Of a stretch of DNA of 64,000 bases, positions 53,941 to 57,779 are shown piece after piece. The notes under the pieces are model-generated. The model worked only from the letters and a program-made list of their open reading frames with translations, did no database searches and was not told the DNA's origin. The position numbers and the translations under genes are program-made. Numbering within the stretch: the stretch's first letter is position 1; every line of letters starts with the position of its first letter. The DNA comes from a virus. Lineage: Duplodnaviria; Caudoviricetes. The DNA lies in IMG/VR virus record IMGVR_UViG_3300042554_000362, positions 341 to 64,340 of that record; one strand, 5' to 3'.

Positions 53941-54789
53941 ATGCAAACATCAGCCCGTAACCCACTCAGTGGTTACTTCAGACAACCTGCTATATTTCTA
54001 ACATTGCCCAGTAAAGGGCGTTGGTGGGAGCCAGATTCTCTAGAACTGTCAGAAAATGGTGATATCGCTGTATACCCAATGAGTGCTAAAGATGAAATTA
54101 CCATACGCACCCCTGATGCATTACTTAACGGACAAGGTGTGGTTAACGTAATACAAAGCTGCTGCCCAAACATAAAGAATGCCTGGAAAATGCCTAGTGT
54201 CGATATTGATGCTGTTTTAATTTCTATTAGAATCGCCACCTACGGCAGTAACATGTCTTTCGACAGTACCTGTCCACATTGCAAAGCAGCCAACACCCAT
54301 GAAATTGATTTGGGTGCGCCATTAACCAGTATCAAATGCCCAAATTTTGATCAAACCGTAAAATACAGAGATTTGGTAATCAAACTTAGACCGCAACATT
54401 ATTTTGAAGCTAATAGAATAAACATGATTGGCTATGAAGAACAGAAGATACTAGCCACCTTAAGCAATGAATCTCTAGATGATGAAACTAGAATAGCACA
54501 AGTTACTATTATTATGCAAAAGATCGTAGAGATAGGTATAGAGGGTTGCGTAAACAGTACCGAATACATACAGCTTCCTAACGGGGATAGAATCATAAAC
54601 AAGGACCATCTCAATGAATTTTATCATAACGCCGAAAAGACTGTGGTAGCGTCAGTTCAAGAGGCGGTGGGTGCTATAGCAGCTGAATCTAAAATCCCAG
54701 AAATACAACTATCTTGCGATGAATGTTCGTCAACCTATTCAGCAGAACTTACTTTTGATTATTCAAATTTTTTCGCAAAAGGCTCTTAA
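53941..54789 (+). CDS. gp26: Baseplate hub assembly/tail chaperone protein, T4 gp26-like
   Basis: Start re-called to ATG 53941. Motifs LTLPSKG, PMSAKDE, DIDAVLISIRIATYG, two CxxC pairs (CPHC, CDEC) and a C-terminal NFF. Confidence 0.75.
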   Translation: MQTSARNPLSGYFRQPAIFLTLPSKGRWWEPDSLELSENGDIAVYPMSAKDEITIRTPDALLNGQGVVNVIQSCCPNIKNAWKMPSVDIDAVLISIRIATYGSNMSFDSTCPHCKAANTHEIDLGAPLTSIKCPNFDQTVKYRDLVIKLRPQHYFEANRINMIGYEEQKILATLSNESLDDETRIAQVTIIMQKIVEIGIEGCVNSTEYIQLPNGDRIINKDHLNEFYHNAEKTVVASVQEAVGAIAAESKIPEIQLSCDECSSTYSAELTFDYSNFFAKGS

Positions 54790-55004
54790 CCTTAGATGAC
54801 GCAGCGATCGTTAATCTAATAGATGCCTACGATCGTGAGGTTAAAGCCTTAAAAAATGAATTACTGCGGATGTGCTGGTTTATGCGTGGTAGTATTAGCT
54901 ATTCTGAAGCTGTAATGTTGAGTCCCAGCGATCGTGCTATTATTGCTGATATTATCAAAGAGAATTTAGAAACTGCCAAAGAGTCTAAAATGCCTTTCTG
55001 GTAA
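54765..55004 (+). CDS. gp51-like frame, probably expressed as a -1 frameshift extension of the gp26-like gene
   Basis: Not in the ORF track. The -1 frame is open from 54759 to TAA 55002-55004 and reads ...LTLDDAAIVNLIDAYDREVKALKNELLRMCWFMRGSISYSEAVMLSPSDRAIIADIIKENLETAKESKMPFW. Its first ATG is only at 54870. Confidence 0.65.
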   Translation, partial: KFFRKRLLTLDDAAIVNLIDAYDREVKALKNELLRMCWFMRGSISYSEAVMLSPSDRAIIADIIKENLETAKESKMPFW

Positions 55005-55007
55005 TCA

Positions 55008-55052
55008 AGATTTGCTTTCGCAAATCTATTTCTTTCGCTTGCGCTCAGAAAT
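55008..55052. other. Two hairpins with GC-GAAA-GC / GC-GCAA-GC cores (terminator and/or origin-like)
   Basis: AGATTTGC-TTTC-GCAAATCT at 55008-55027, and ATTTCT...AGAAAT enclosing GCTTGCGC at 55028-55052. Confidence 0.5.
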
Positions 55053-55080
55053 CTTTTTCTTCTTTAAGATACTTTTAAAA

Positions 55081-55417
55081 GGGCATTCATCCAGATAATT
55101 CAGTCATAATTCGCCCGTTGCCGGGCGAAAAATAGACGACGCCTTCATCCGAGTGCATCAGCCACTGATCTGGTAGAGTTGTTTTGCAACAGGAGGCGGT
55201 TGACCTGTACCCCCATGCTCTAGCCTTCGCGCATGTCAACGGAACCCTAGTCGCACTAATCAGCAGCACGATTGGAGCCTACGGTTGTATCTTTTTCACA
55301 GAGCCGTAACCATTTGAGACCTAAAGTTAGTTCTATCCTCGCAATGCCCAAGATCCGACGGTAAATGAATACAGCCTCAATGGGAGTCGAGCAGCCCCGA
55401 CCAAACGCTATTGCATG
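55081..55417 (-). ncRNA. Candidate large structured non-coding RNA (family unassigned)
   Basis: GC-richer gap without a credible ORF, containing many complementary segments, a GCAA-capped 8-bp hairpin and G-U pairs that favour the minus strand. Confidence 0.6.
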
Positions 55418-55927
55418 TTAACGGCACAAGGCCGCGATTGATTGTTGGTTAAGTTTAAGGAATTGTTCTAGATCGAATATTTGCCAGACTTGGTGTCGTT
55501 GAGATCTATATGTGAATGAGCTAAGGGTTTGGTCCCAAGATTGATTATATGGTACTGCTACGTATGTGCCTTTGCGATTGAACTTCATGAACAGAATGTT
55601 AAAATCACCCTTGTCAGCTACCTCTAACATCTGTTCAATCCATCCGTCTAACTGTTTACATGAGCCTGTGAATAATTGATGAAATGGAAAATCTGCGTAA
55701 CTTTTTGCTTCAGCGTTCATACGACCAAAACTGGGTCCTGGTACTATGTCGCCTTTGCTGTGCCTAATTTGAGCTTCTGATAATGTGTCTTTTCTTGCAG
55801 TATTCTTGCCACCTATGTAAGCACCAGAGTTGGTAACTCGAATGAAACTTTCGCCAAATGTATCTGACAACAACTTGGCTATGTCACGTTCGAAGCTGCT
55901 TCCTTTGTTCTTACTTTTTGATGGCAT
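55418..55927 (-). CDS. Holliday junction resolvase-like PD-(D/E)XK nuclease
   Basis: Motifs SKNKGSSFER, SGAYIGG, GDIV...EAK and FMKFNR, typical of phage Hjc-like resolvases. Confidence 0.8.
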   Translation of the reverse strand: MPSKSKNKGSSFERDIAKLLSDTFGESFIRVTNSGAYIGGKNTARKDTLSEAQIRHSKGDIVPGPSFGRMNAEAKSYADFPFHQLFTGSCKQLDGWIEQMLEVADKGDFNILFMKFNRKGTYVAVPYNQSWDQTLSSFTYRSQRHQVWQIFDLEQFLKLNQQSIAALCR

Positions 55928-56009
55928 TTAGTTTATTACTTATACTTTTGTTGAGTTTTGAGGTGGTTTTACTTTATTTTATTAACGTTTATTGTTTAAT
56001 GTTTCGTCC

Positions 56010-57779
56010 TCAAACCTCTACATCACTGCTATACGTTGTGAACCCATTTTGTTTGGTTACACGCAGTATATTACTGACCCTACTAACTAGCTCGTCTCTG
56101 TGACTTACCAGCCATACACTTTTTCGGGCATCCCTACTGATTTTCTTAAGTATGGCTAAACTACTTTCCATACCTGAAGCATCCAAGCCCGAATCTACTA
56201 ATTCATCGACAAATAGTAAATTCATCCTGTGATATAAACTTTCGTAAACATCACGGAATGCCCAGCTTAGACTCAGTATTAGTCTGTTTCGTTCCCCACG
56301 GGATAGATTGTCGAAATCTAAGTCTCTACCTAACTCAGTTATTTCTACACTTAAATCATTTTGAAATACCACTTGATGCGGCAAACCAATCTTTTCCAAG
56401 TAATAACTAAGTCTTGTATTTAAGTAATTCAAGTTCTGATCAATGATTTTCTTGCGAATAAAGCTGTCTTTGTTGGTTAACAGCTTTAATAAAAATTCTT
56501 CGTGGTCACGTTTCTGCGTAAGTTGATTGATCTGATCATAGGTAATTTCCACCAGTGCAGTGCTACGCATGTCTACAATCTGTTCTAGATATGGATCTTG
56601 CTCTGTTTGTTTGGCGGTGATTTGTTGCTGTAATCCAGCTAGAGTAGCACGATGTTCAATGGCATCACTTTCTCTGTCATAAAACACAGTGGGTCTAGTG
56701 CCTAGTTCGCCTAACTCGGTGAGTTGAACTTGTAGTTTCATTAACTCAGCTTCAGCTGAGCCAATTAAGCGTTCACTTTCTACACGATCCTGTCGACGTT
56801 CTGCCAGTGTTTGGGCTTGTTTATGATCATGGAAATCTTGTCCACAAGCATGACATTTATGGTTTTCCAGTGCTAGAATTTCACGATCCAGCCTAGTTAA
56901 AGTTTTATGTTCTCGAGAGATTTCAGTTTCGGCTCTGCGAATATCTGCTGTGATTTGAGCAATCTTCTGTTGACGCTGACTGTACTCAGTTAATGCTCTA
57001 TGTGCTAGAATTTCAGTATCAATGTCAATTTGGTTCAGCTGATCATAGGCCAAGCGTAGTTCTTCTATGTCTTGATCATGCTTTTGTAGCCATAGTGTTT
57101 GTCTACGCTCCAATGCAGCAATCTGCTCTTGGATGCGTTTGTTAGCATCAATTTGAGCTCGAATATCTGCTTCAGCCTGTGTGATAGCCTCTTTGCTGTT
57201 TCGAATACGCTCTTTAAGTGTATCAGCTTTTTCTGACAGCAAGGTAATTCCCAGTAATTGTTCAATGATTTCACGCTGTTCATTGGCACGTAAGCTGAGA
57301 AACGGCAAGGTATAGGTGTTCAAGGCCACTATGTGCTGGAACATGGTGTGACTCATGCTCAACAACTTTTCAATAGCTGCTTGCGTTTCTCTGCTGTCAC
57401 CTTGACTTTCATCAGTGGCTTGCTGCTCTTGCCCGCCCACATAGAATTTAAGTATGTTAGGCTTTCGACCACGCTCGATGCGATAATCTTGGCCATCCTT
57501 TTCAAATTCCACAGTGACCAACATATTTTTATCGTTGGTTCTGTTGATCAAGTTGTCTTTCTTGATATTGGTCAGCGCAGAACCATACAGTGCATAGCTG
57601 ACTATGTTCAACAGTGCGCTTTTGCCAGTGCCATTGCGAGCACCGGCATCGTCGCCGCCTAGGTCTAAGTTTTCGCCCAGAATTAGTGTAAGGTCAGCGC
57701 GATCTAGGTTAACACTTTGTGTAACATTGCCCACACTGAGAAAGTTTCGAGCAGTAACGGATTTTATTCTAATCATCAA
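56010..57779 (-). CDS. gp46: Recombination endonuclease ATPase subunit (Rad50/SbcC-like), T4 gp46
   Basis: Walker A NGTGKS, CHAC zinc hook within a coiled coil, LSRGE signature, LFVDE Walker B and VSH switch. Confidence 0.95.
   Translation of the reverse strand: MMIRIKSVTARNFLSVGNVTQSVNLDRADLTLILGENLDLGGDDAGARNGTGKSALLNIVSYALYGSALTNIKKDNLINRTNDKNMLVTVEFEKDGQDYRIERGRKPNILKFYVGGQEQQATDESQGDSRETQAAIEKLLSMSHTMFQHIVALNTYTLPFLSLRANEQREIIEQLLGITLLSEKADTLKERIRNSKEAITQAEADIRAQIDANKRIQEQIAALERRQTLWLQKHDQDIEELRLAYDQLNQIDIDTEILAHRALTEYSQRQQKIAQITADIRRAETEISREHKTLTRLDREILALENHKCHACGQDFHDHKQAQTLAERRQDRVESERLIGSAEAELMKLQVQLTELGELGTRPTVFYDRESDAIEHRATLAGLQQQITAKQTEQDPYLEQIVDMRSTALVEITYDQINQLTQKRDHEEFLLKLLTNKDSFIRKKIIDQNLNYLNTRLSYYLEKIGLPHQVVFQNDLSVEITELGRDLDFDNLSRGERNRLILSLSWAFRDVYESLYHRMNLLFVDELVDSGLDASGMESSLAILKKISRDARKSVWLVSHRDELVSRVSNILRVTKQNGFTTYSSDVEV

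What the first reader, a model, noticed from the sequence alone, without database searches (positions are those of the whole stretch)
55081..55417. Candidate ~340-nt ornate structured RNA directly downstream of the resolvase gene
Seen in sequence: this is the largest non-coding gap in an otherwise gene-dense window, and it is GC-richer than its flanks. On the minus strand it folds densely: UUCGCCCG-GCAA-CGGGCGAA (55110-55129, GNRA loop on the minus strand only) extended by GUCGU/AUGAC; GUCGGG/CUCGAC; long-range CCAUU-GAGGC/GUCUC-A-AAUGG; UACGG/CCGUA; UCGUGCUG/UAGUGCGA; GUUGAC/GUCAAC enclosing AUGC/GCAU; UAGAG/CUCUA; CCAGAU/AUCUGG; and GGGCAUU (55349-55343) with AAUGCCC (55087-55081). Several of these cross, implying pseudoknots or alternative folds. 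I do not recognise it as tRNA, tmRNA, RNase P or a group I/II intron. Inference: it is a large phage ncRNA co-transcribed with gp55-gp47-gp46-resolvase. It could be a replication primer/R-loop RNA, a nuclease partner, or an ornate RNA of the ROOL/GOLLD/ARRPOF kind.
Basis: partly seen in the sequence, partly recalled or inferred. Interest (0 to 1): 0.85.

Follow-up and report, generated by a model that had tools for sequence, protein, structure and literature searches.

The report
Twin-box knotted RNA of lake phages
The gene-free gap behind the nuclease gene of this uncultured T4-like lake phage encodes a real, roughly 400-base, triply knotted non-coding RNA found in well over a hundred related phage contigs and in no RNA catalogue; it carries one short word twice, the two copies always change together, and its job is still unknown.

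Summary
Window 55005-55417 is the only large ORF-free gap. Read on the minus strand it is a conserved non-coding RNA.

- Spread: homologues lie in 149 of 199 IMG/VR loci. One more sits in a 148-kb contig binned as a Haliscomenobacter MAG. None was found in cultured phages.
- Structure: on 45 sequences under 85% identical, my 88-pair model with three pseudoknots is 92.8% paired. Shuffles give 78.4%, slid controls 36-44%. 64 of 88 pairs show double changes, and 0 of 500 shuffles reach that.
- Strand: G.U outnumbers A.C 388 to 32 in the core, which fixes the minus strand.
- The window copy folded alone is not significant (z -1.33).
- Catalogues: no Rfam family matches. Polynucleobacter-1 (RF01718), named in earlier scan notes, does not match here.
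- Twin boxes: two 7-nt boxes about 57 nt apart are identical in 83 of 83 members across 19 variants, through many independent changes. No complement occurs in the RNA or its flanks.
- Upstream nuclease: it is swappable, SegE-type GIY-YIG in 41 and PDDEXK in 15 of 66.

Function is unknown. My best guess, about 35%, is an origin or R-loop RNA that grips its own template DNA. This scan has already met the same family on other genomes.

The parts
55005..55417 (-). Whole conserved non-coding element, about 413 nt. The knotted core plus boxes is about 55086-55415. The true 5' and 3' ends are not mapped.
   Evidence: nhmmer profile hits over model positions 1-406 in relatives. No consistent ORF. Covariation.
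55340..55415 (-). 5' three-way junction. H1 (RNA positions 6-8 with 73-75) encloses hairpin H2 (55386-55401) and the extended hairpin H3/H4 (55347-55384).
   Evidence: H1 3 of 3, H3 3 of 4 and H4 7 of 8 pairs have double changes, with 96-100% of cells paired. H2 is a hairpin of variable sequence: 81 of 82 members form at least 4 bp, mean MFE -9.2 against -2.9 shuffled.
55317..55333 (-). Hairpin H5 with the conserved loop UAACUUnAG.
   Evidence: 4 of 5 pairs with double changes, 90.9% paired.
55279..55309 (-). Hairpin H6a/H6b (UACGG/CCGUA plus an inner UGU/ACA helix) with the conserved GAAAAAGAU loop.
   Evidence: 5 of 8 pairs with double changes, 95-99% paired.
55245..55277 (-). Hairpin H7. 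Its loop (about 55258-55267) forms pseudoknot PK3 with 55161-55170.
   Evidence: H7: 8 of 9 pairs with double changes. PK3 per sequence: mean helix 8.06 bp against 5.69 +/- 0.14 in 200 permutations, with 44 different strand sequences.
55192..55240 (-). Nearly invariant core. H8 is GUUGAC (55235-55240) with GUCAAC (55199-55204). It is crossed by H11, GGGGGU (55209-55214) with GCCUCC (55192-55197). This is pseudoknot PK1.
   Evidence: H8 99.6% paired, 2 pairs with double changes. H11 100% paired but almost invariant, so it is consistent and not proven. The motif GGTACNGNNCAACCNCCTCC retrieved 119 IMG/VR loci.
55175..55221 (-). H10 is AGAG (55218-55221) with CUCU (55175-55178) and forms pseudoknot PK2 across H8. 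It encloses the variable hairpin H12 (55178-55190).
   Evidence: H10: 4 of 4 pairs with double changes, 96.1% paired. H12: 72 of 83 members form at least 4 bp, -4.5 against -0.7 shuffled.
55144..55150 (-). Box 1 (GGAUGAA on the RNA). In most members it lies in or at the loop of a small hairpin of variable sequence.
   Evidence: Identical to box 2 in 83 of 83 members. In a hairpin loop by MFE in 43 of 83.
55110..55129 (-). Hairpin H13 (UUCGCCCG-GCAA-CGGGCGAA), between the two boxes.
   Evidence: 4 of 8 pairs with double changes, 90.8% paired.
55086..55092 (-). Box 2 (GGAUGAA), 58 nt downstream of box 1.
55053..55083 (-). A-rich, A+T-rich linker of variable length.
   Evidence: Median 23 nt (range 11-67), A 0.56, A+T 0.76 over 106 sequences.
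55028..55052 (-). Hairpin H14: a stem, the internal motif UGA / GAAA, and an inner 2-bp stem capped by a GNRA-type loop.
   Evidence: 7 of 7 pairs with double changes, 91.5-98.9% paired.
55008..55027 (.). Hairpin H15. On the plus strand it is an intrinsic-terminator-like hairpin with a T-rich tail for the convergent baseplate genes. It may serve both strands.
   Evidence: It is the only terminator-like site in 54800-56100 and lies on the plus strand. 7 of 8 pairs with double changes. G.U 13 against A.C 18, so no strand preference.
55418..55927 (-). Upstream neighbour: a 169-aa PD-(D/E)XK nuclease gene whose stop codon abuts the RNA. It is not an obligate part of the element.
   Evidence: Pfam PDDEXK_15, E 1.1e-26. 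PHROG 244, labelled RusA-like resolvase. Replaced by SegE-type GIY-YIG in 41 of 66 relatives.

Best explanation
Shown, near certain: the gap encodes a member of a large, uncatalogued family of phage non-coding RNAs of about 330-410 nt, read from the minus strand. It sits at the 3' end of the gp47-gp46(-nuclease) gene block of uncultured aquatic T4-like phages. The RNA has a 5' three-way junction, a core locked by three pseudoknots, and a 3' part that carries two identical 7-nt boxes about 57 nt apart.

Inferred, about 35%: the boxes work by base pairing. Box 1, displayed on the folded RNA, pairs with the complement of box 2. That complement exists in the template DNA strand of the RNA's own gene. 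The transcript would thereby clamp onto its DNA as the polymerase passes box 2, and a persistent RNA-DNA hybrid (R-loop) would form in the A+T-rich stretch just downstream. The likely use is to prime or open a replication origin. This is how ColE1 RNA II works and how T4 oriF/oriG work. The knotted core would hold box 1 in place and make the event depend on correct folding. The upstream nuclease genes are free-standing homing-type endonucleases that have settled next to a highly conserved target. They are not partners of the RNA.

The confidence given (0.35) is for the inferred mechanism. That this is a real structured RNA of this family I hold at about 0.95.
For: A real RNA:
- Homologues in 149 of 199 IMG/VR loci, with no conserved ORF.
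- 92.8% of cells paired against 78.4% in shuffles and 36-44% in slid controls. 64 of 88 pairs have double changes and 0 of 500 shuffles reach that.
- PK3 helices average 8.06 bp against 5.69 in permuted controls.
- G.U 388 against A.C 32 in the core.
- GC stays near 0.45 even in loci with 0.33 GC.

Boxes read by pairing:
- Identical in 83 of 83 members, with 19 variants.
- On a tree built without the box columns, position 1 changes at least 16 and 14 times. 6-7 of 7 independent pairs go the same way and none the other way. At position 5 it is 5 of 5.
- The 5' flanks stay different (ACUC against AUCU, 82 of 82), so gene conversion does not explain the identity.
- At offsets 8 and 9 the non-identical cases are almost all (G,A) and (U,C): 63 such cases against 2 of the reverse type. 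This is the wobble pattern expected if box 1 pairs with the complement of box 2.

No complement in the RNA or enriched in up to 14 kb of flanks (35 hits seen against 45 expected). A two-site system needs only two coordinated changes, which fits the fast turnover.

Setting:
- An A+T-rich variable linker follows box 2.
- The locus lies where transcription switches strand.
- The T4 review says oriF/oriG consist of a promoter plus an A+T-rich unwinding element with a persistent R-loop, and that active origins lie near strand-switch regions (PMC3016281, passages read).
- ColE1 RNA II forms a persistent hybrid that depends on its fold (PMC5043065, passages read).
Against: - No experiment or read data show an R-loop, a primer or even the ends of the RNA.
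- The RNA-library contigs cover only 55185-55774.
- Cumulative GC skew shows no turn at the locus.
- T4 R-loops need no specific sequence (PMC3016281), and no known origin RNA needs three pseudoknots.
- A 7-9-bp RNA-DNA contact is short.
- The wobble polarity rests on two columns. One of them (offset 8, G in box 1) may be fixed for a local stem instead.
- An unseen trans partner complementary to box 2 fits the same counts.
- The ColE1 detail of an upstream G stretch pairing with a template C stretch is recalled from memory and was not seen in any call.
Confidence: 0.35

Rival explanations
1. A trans-acting RNA, either a decoy, scaffold or bivalent guide. The knotted core is a stable platform, and the two identical boxes each bind the same outside nucleic acid, a phage or host RNA or DNA site, in two copies.
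For: The boxes are identical with no complement inside the RNA. Box 1 often sits in a hairpin loop, a usual way to present a pairing site (43 of 83). The wobble pattern at offsets 8-9 also fits a partner exactly complementary to box 2. Earlier scan notes reach the same open reading.
Against: This needs three coordinated changes each time, yet the boxes changed many times. No complement is enriched in up to 14 kb of flanking DNA. Whole genomes of relatives could not be scanned at scale here.
Confidence: 0.3
2. A self-processing or catalytic RNA. The two boxes would be equivalent recognition or cleavage sites that release the 57-nt segment between them.
For: Dense pseudoknotting and a nearly invariant core are typical of ribozymes. 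Two identical sites could be read by one active site.
Against: No match to any ribozyme family in Rfam. No internal guide complementary to the boxes. The one contig joint seen (55305 to 55673, one run) does not involve the boxes.
Confidence: 0.08
3. A cis-acting 3' element of the gp47-gp46-nuclease transcript. It would act as an exonuclease block or as an insulator/terminator between two convergent operons.
For: It always lies at the 3' end of that gene block and faces convergent genes. It starts within about 0-25 nt of the upstream stop codon and has no conserved promoter. H15 is terminator-like.
Against: About 400 nt with three pseudoknots and covarying twin boxes is far more than such roles need. 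The element keeps its sequence while the genes on both sides of it are swapped.
Confidence: 0.1
4. A guide or partner RNA of the adjacent nuclease, an OMEGA/TnpB-like nuclease-RNA system.
For: A small nuclease gene ends directly before the RNA in 56 of 66 relatives.
Against: The nucleases belong to two unrelated families. Other genes take that place in 10 of 66. In many loci there are 1-6 kb between gp46 and the RNA, with no PDDEXK match. SegE-type enzymes are protein-guided homing endonucleases by their Pfam family name. No guide-like variable 3' or 5' end was seen.
Confidence: 0.03
5. Not an RNA at all, but a DNA-level element such as direct-repeat iterons for an initiator protein, or a missed protein-coding gene.
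For: The boxes lie in two similar segments of about 24 nt (AUGAC...box), which resembles iterons.
Against: Compensatory base-pair changes throughout. Strong G.U over A.C bias. No conserved ORF. Wobble-type exceptions in the boxes.
Confidence: 0.04

Closest known systems
The scan's own 'twin-box knotted RNA' of T4-like phages (earlier notes e1-6072294, e1-6072282, e1-5895179 and others). Unpublished as far as my searches show.
   Same: Sits behind a small nuclease gene. About 300-500 nt, with several pseudoknots. One 7-nt word occurs twice and the copies change together. Found in well over a hundred phage contigs. I tested all of these independently here.
   Different: This window's copy follows a PDDEXK rather than a GIY-YIG nuclease. 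Its 5' third gives no RF01718 match.
Polynucleobacter-1 RNA motif (Rfam RF01718; Weinberg et al. 2010, PMC2864571, where I saw only the table row)
   Same: A freshwater orphan motif. A true copy (92.4 bits) lies in the same Haliscomenobacter MAG that holds one twin-box RNA, but on another contig. That copy also shows two GGAUG words and a hairpin with an AGCnnnAGC-type loop. This is a loose resemblance by eye.
   Different: No RF01718 hit at E<=10 in this genome or in the records of 4 divergent members. No hit at E<=1 in 17 member loci. The family profile finds nothing in the true RF01718 locus. The helix layout differs.
GOLLD, ROOL, OLE, HEARO, raiA: large 'ornate' orphan RNAs, several of them phage-borne (bioRxiv 10.1101/2024.12.08.627333, abstract seen in a listing)
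   Same: Large, highly structured, of unknown function and often on phages.
   Different: No Rfam match to any of them. This RNA is smaller. The twin boxes are not described for them, which I state from memory.
ColE1 RNA II and the T4 oriF/oriG origin transcripts
   Same: A works-like comparison only. In those systems a folded transcript stays hybridised to its template and primes DNA synthesis, and in T4 an A+T-rich unwinding element lies downstream (PMC5043065, PMC3016281, passages read). Here the twin boxes, the A+T-rich linker and the strand-switch position fit that picture.
   Different: No sequence or structural relation. No promoter of its own was seen. No R-loop has been shown. The known origin RNAs are not knotted.

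Membership tests
Any Rfam 15 family (tRNA, tmRNA, RNase P, group I/II introns, ROOL, GOLLD, OLE, HEARO and the rest) | Covariance-model score at or above the family's gathering threshold | tested here: not met
   0 matches in the whole window. At E<=10 in 54900-55550 there were 4 sub-threshold chance hits to eukaryotic snoRNA/lncRNA models. In 17 member loci at E<=1 the only hit was a chance miRNA match outside the element.
Polynucleobacter-1 (RF01718) | Match to the 141-position model (gathering score 37 bits) | tested here: not met
   No match at E<=10 in the own genome or in the records holding L117, L139, L085 and L095. The search does find a true copy elsewhere at 92.4 bits, so it works.
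Twin-box knotted phage RNA (this scan's working family) | Two 7-nt boxes about 50-60 nt apart, identical within each genome and variable between genomes | tested here: met
   83 of 83 members, 19 variants. The co-changes are independent events.
Twin-box knotted phage RNA (this scan's working family) | Conserved multi-pseudoknot fold supported by covariation | tested here: met
Twin-box knotted phage RNA (this scan's working family) | Position downstream of gp46/gp47 and usually of a small nuclease gene in T4-like phage contigs | tested here: met
R-loop origin RNA (ColE1 RNA II / T4 oriF type) | Persistent RNA-DNA hybrid whose processed 3' end primes DNA synthesis | not testable with these tools
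   Only indirect signs: box behaviour, the A+T-rich linker and the strand-switch position.
R-loop origin RNA (ColE1 RNA II / T4 oriF type) | A dedicated promoter upstream of the unwinding element | tested here: inconclusive
   No conserved sigma-70-like or TATAAATA motif in the 100 nt upstream of 78 members. The RNA may instead be read through from the upstream genes.
RNA-guided nuclease system (OMEGA/TnpB-like) | Obligate co-occurrence of one nuclease family with the RNA | tested here: not met
   GIY-YIG 41, PDDEXK 15 and others 10 of 66.
Group I intron with an intron-borne homing endonuclease | Insertion within a host gene with flanking exons, and a match to the intron core | tested here: not met
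   The element lies between complete convergent genes. No Intron_gpI hit.

The most novel reading that the evidence does not exclude
The twin boxes are an RNA-to-own-template-DNA clamp. A folded phage RNA presents box 1, which pairs with the template strand at box 2. This seeds a programmed R-loop that starts genome replication in a very large group of aquatic T4-like phages. It would be the first sequence rule for R-loop origin formation in T4-type phages.
Probability: 0.3. Interest if true: 0.88.

Novelty: new variant of a known kind. Interest (0 to 1): 0.78.

Why it matters
Large, conserved, multiply knotted RNAs are rare, and nearly all that have been solved turned out to do something fundamental. 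This one is widespread in abundant freshwater and estuarine T4-like phages, is absent from Rfam, and did not turn up in any of the six literature searches that ran.

Its twin boxes show identity covariation with wobble polarity and no complement in the RNA. That signal is unusual and testable, and it points to pairing with something outside the RNA, possibly the RNA's own gene. The T4 review lists the rules for R-loop formation at origins as an open question (PMC3016281). If the boxes seed an R-loop, that question becomes directly testable with box mutants.

Even if the function proves different, the alignment and fold are ready for Rfam, for cryo-EM and for probing.

Tried and rejected
- Single-sequence folding as evidence: not significant.
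- Coding potential: no ORF conserved in frame or length across relatives.
- Rfam: no hits at gathering or at permissive thresholds.
- RF01718 membership, a lead from earlier notes: not met.
- Cultured phages: blastn in 'distant' mode with the window stretch gave one hit, a Salicola phage, and only in the nuclease part. The L083 copy gave nothing.
- Genome contigs pattern scan: 119 of 120 loci were chance matches and 1 was real.
- Partner for the boxes inside the RNA: no 7-mer complement, and 5- and 6-mer complements do no better than boxes borrowed from other members. The small excess in the H4 loop is confined to the window's own clade.
- Partner in flanking DNA: 35 reverse-complement hits against 45 expected.
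- Box as a promoter-like word: 4 extra copies in 64 kb on that strand, which is the chance level.
- Own promoter: none conserved.
- GC skew: no turn at the locus.
- RNA-seq: only Logan contigs were available. They cover 55185-55774 in X15 and 55231-55774 in X16. They do not cover 55005-55184, and I draw no conclusion from that missing cover. The single joint 55305>55673 comes from one run with a 21-letter side, and I treat it as noise.
- Mismatch asymmetry inside the 7-nt core: only 3 independent cases, too few to use.
- Structures of box 2: no consistent hairpin.
- The helix GUCGU/AUGAC around H13 was left out of the model because support is weak.
- Fremin et al. 2023 (PMC10690425, passages read) list over ten thousand candidate viral RNAs in supplementary tables that I could not open. 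This family may be among them, unnamed.
- Rows dropped: L081 (the window's own genome) was left out of the family counts. Sequences at least 93% identical or at least 85% identical were filtered out before the covariation counts. L117 was left out because its boxes sit in a shifted register.

Full report
What is there. The window is a 64-kb fragment of an uncultured virus record that CheckV rates 18% complete. Around the finding, the minus strand carries gp47-like (Metallophos), gp46-like (SMC_N/AAA_23) and a 169-aa PD-(D/E)XK nuclease gene. The plus strand carries a baseplate-hub (gp26-like) gene and a conserved 70-codon frame that converge on them. Between the two stop codons lie 413 nt (55005-55417). 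This is the only large ORF-free gap in the window, and it is locally GC-rich.

Is it more than chance? Taken alone, no. The minus strand folds to -126.1 kcal/mol against -118.3 +/- 5.8 for dinucleotide shuffles (z -1.33). The plus strand gives z -0.20. Rfam gives nothing.

Comparison with relatives settles the matter. Loci fetched with the nuclease protein carry the same gap sequence at 67-99% identity. A profile finds the element in 149 of 199 IMG/VR loci. Of these, 120 are near full length and 105 are unique, and 83 remain after removing sequences at least 93% identical. No ORF is conserved. GC stays near 0.45 even where the surrounding phage DNA has 0.33.

In 596 Gb of prokaryote genomes the same motif gave 120 loci. 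One is real, on a 148-kb contig binned as a Haliscomenobacter MAG. No cultured phage matched by blastn.

Structure. I derived helices from mutual information, from RNAalifold and by eye. I then wrote an 88-pair model with three pseudoknots onto a MAFFT alignment of 45 sequences under 85% identical.
- The tool's count gives 92.8% of 3756 cells paired, against 78.4 +/- 0.4% in shuffles. 64 of 88 pairs have changes on both sides (shuffled mean 43.6), and 0 of 500 shuffles reach that.
- The covariation score is 0.386, against 0.04-0.08 when partners are slid by 1-3 columns. Those slid versions are 36-44% paired.
- The model was derived from these same sequences, which favours it against the slid controls. 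The per-pair tables nevertheless show many different pair types.
- The third pseudoknot joins the loop of hairpin H7 to RNA positions 246-256. It is badly aligned by MAFFT, so I tested it per sequence. The mean helix is 8.06 bp, against 5.69 +/- 0.14 (maximum 6.04) when loops and partners are permuted among members. There are 44 different strand sequences.
- The variable hairpins H2 and H12 fold in 81 of 82 and 72 of 83 members, far better than shuffles.
- H11 (GGGGGU/GCCUCC) is almost invariant. It is consistent with pairing but not proven.

Strand. In the 5' domain and core, G.U cells outnumber A.C cells 388 to 32. H13, H14 and H15 show no bias. H15 is also the only terminator-like site in the area, and it lies on the plus strand. 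It probably ends the convergent baseplate transcript and may serve both strands.

Six of the listed helices hold in relatives. The proposed closing helix GGGCAUU/AAUGCCC does not, and neither do CCAGAU/AUCUGG, AUGC/GCAU or the long CCAUUGAGGC/GUCUCAAAUGG. The element extends beyond the stated start to about 55005-55028.

Twin boxes. Mutual information showed column pairs that covary by identity, not by complementarity.
- The RNA carries GGAUGAA twice, at window 55144-55150 and 55086-55092. In all 83 members a core of 6-9 nt is the same in both places, in 19 variants.
- On a tree built without the box columns, position 1 changes at least 16 and 14 times in the two boxes. 6-7 of 7 independent pairs on supported branches change the same way and none the opposite way (sign test p 0.016-0.031). 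Position 5 goes the same way in 5 of 5, and position 7 in 3-4 of 5 with none opposite.
- The three bases before the boxes stay different in 82 of 82 members (CUC against UCU), so copy-correction of a repeat does not explain it.
- Just after the boxes the exceptions follow wobble rules with a polarity. At offset 8 there are 17 identical and 48 (G,A) cases. At offset 9 there are 63 identical and 15 (U,C). The reverse types occur once each.
- So box 1 behaves like a strand that pairs with the complement of box 2 over about 9 positions.
- That complement is not in the RNA and is not enriched in up to 14 kb of flanks.

Context. In loci found by the RNA motif alone, the element always lies downstream of gp47-gp46 on the same strand and faces the small ORF plus the baseplate gene. 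There are 0.4-6 kb of variable genes on either side. An ORF of at least 60 aa ends within 60 nt upstream in 66 of 83 members. It is a 156-aa SegE-type GIY-YIG nuclease in 41 (Pfam E 8.5e-33), the PDDEXK in 15 and unrelated proteins in 10. Two unrelated nuclease families in one slot beside a highly conserved sequence is the pattern of free-standing homing endonucleases. That link is an inference from the Pfam family name and from recalled T4 Seg biology.

No promoter motif is conserved upstream. Metatranscriptome contigs from two studies run across the nuclease/RNA border (X15 55275-55774, X16 55374-55774 and 55231-55403). This fits read-through transcription, but contigs show neither strand nor ends, and DNA carry-over cannot be excluded.

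Comparison with what is known.
- No Rfam family matches.
- Earlier notes of this scan describe the same family on other genomes and name Polynucleobacter-1 as the closest known.
- I tested that lead. RF01718 gives nothing at E<=10 here or in the records of four divergent members. It does find a true copy elsewhere in the Haliscomenobacter MAG, so the search itself works. My family profile finds nothing in that true copy. Here, membership is not met.
- The six literature searches that ran found no description of this RNA.
- The catalogue of Fremin et al. 2023 may hold it unnamed in supplements that I could not open.

Mechanism. The shown facts are the fold, the strand, the spread, the swappable neighbours and the behaviour of the boxes. 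The rest is inferred.
- The simplest system that keeps two same-strand words identical by base-pairing rules is one in which the RNA copy of one word pairs with the opposite DNA strand at the other word. This needs only two coordinated changes and explains why no complement is found.
- Two earlier notes of the scan proposed the same idea, and it changed my reading. The wobble-polarity count is my own test of it, and that test is suggestive, not decisive.
- Three things support an origin or R-loop RNA: the A+T-rich linker after box 2, the strand-switch position, and the T4 and ColE1 precedents. I put that reading at about 35%.
- A trans partner for both boxes is about 30%. The smaller rivals are a ribozyme, a cis 3' element, a nuclease guide and a DNA-only element.

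Verdict. This is a genuine, widespread, uncatalogued knotted phage RNA with an unusual twin-box signature. Its function is not known. The scan has found the same family before on other DNA. This window adds a PDDEXK-flanked member, an independent structure test and the wobble-polarity observation.

Noticed in passing
window 54756-55004 (+): The conserved 70-codon frame after the gp26-like baseplate gene has no ATG/GTG/TTG start until 54870, yet relatives match it over its full length by tblastn (27-77% identity). An earlier first-reader note (e1-6214711) proposes a -1 frameshift from the baseplate gene. I did not test the slippery site.
   Followed up: partly
L174:5612-6079 and 40 other loci; window 55418-55927: The slot directly upstream of the RNA holds a SegE-type GIY-YIG nuclease in 41 relatives, a PDDEXK nuclease in 15 and unrelated ORFs in 10 of 66. 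This looks like repeated settlement of homing-type endonuclease genes beside a conserved RNA gene.
   Followed up: partly
L298:494-872 (contig NZ_JBBAKG010000003.1, 148 kb): The only real copy among 120 motif hits in prokaryote genomes lies on a 148-kb contig binned as a Haliscomenobacter MAG. It is either a mis-binned T4-like phage genome or a hint at a Bacteroidota host.
   Followed up: no
L321:1501-1635 (-): A true Polynucleobacter-1 RNA (RF01718, 92.4 bits) sits on another contig of the same MAG. It contains two GGAUG words and a hairpin with an AGCGGUAGC loop, loosely like the box and H14 region of the twin-box RNA.
   Followed up: partly
window 1-30000 versus 30001-64000: The first 30 kb have GC 0.46-0.55 and strongly negative GC skew (down to -0.30). 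The rest has GC about 0.40-0.46 and skew near zero. This is a marked compositional break inside one phage contig.
   Followed up: no
window 55008-55027: Hairpin H15 covaries like an RNA helix but shows no G.U over A.C bias, and it is followed by a T-rich tail on the plus strand. It is probably a terminator shared by the two convergent transcription units.
   Followed up: partly
L100, L109, L126, L130, L139, L117 (family members): Some members carry extra hairpins or long inserts of 20-90 nt at fixed points: after H4, inside H12, and in the linker after box 2. These mark places where the fold tolerates expansion.
   Followed up: no
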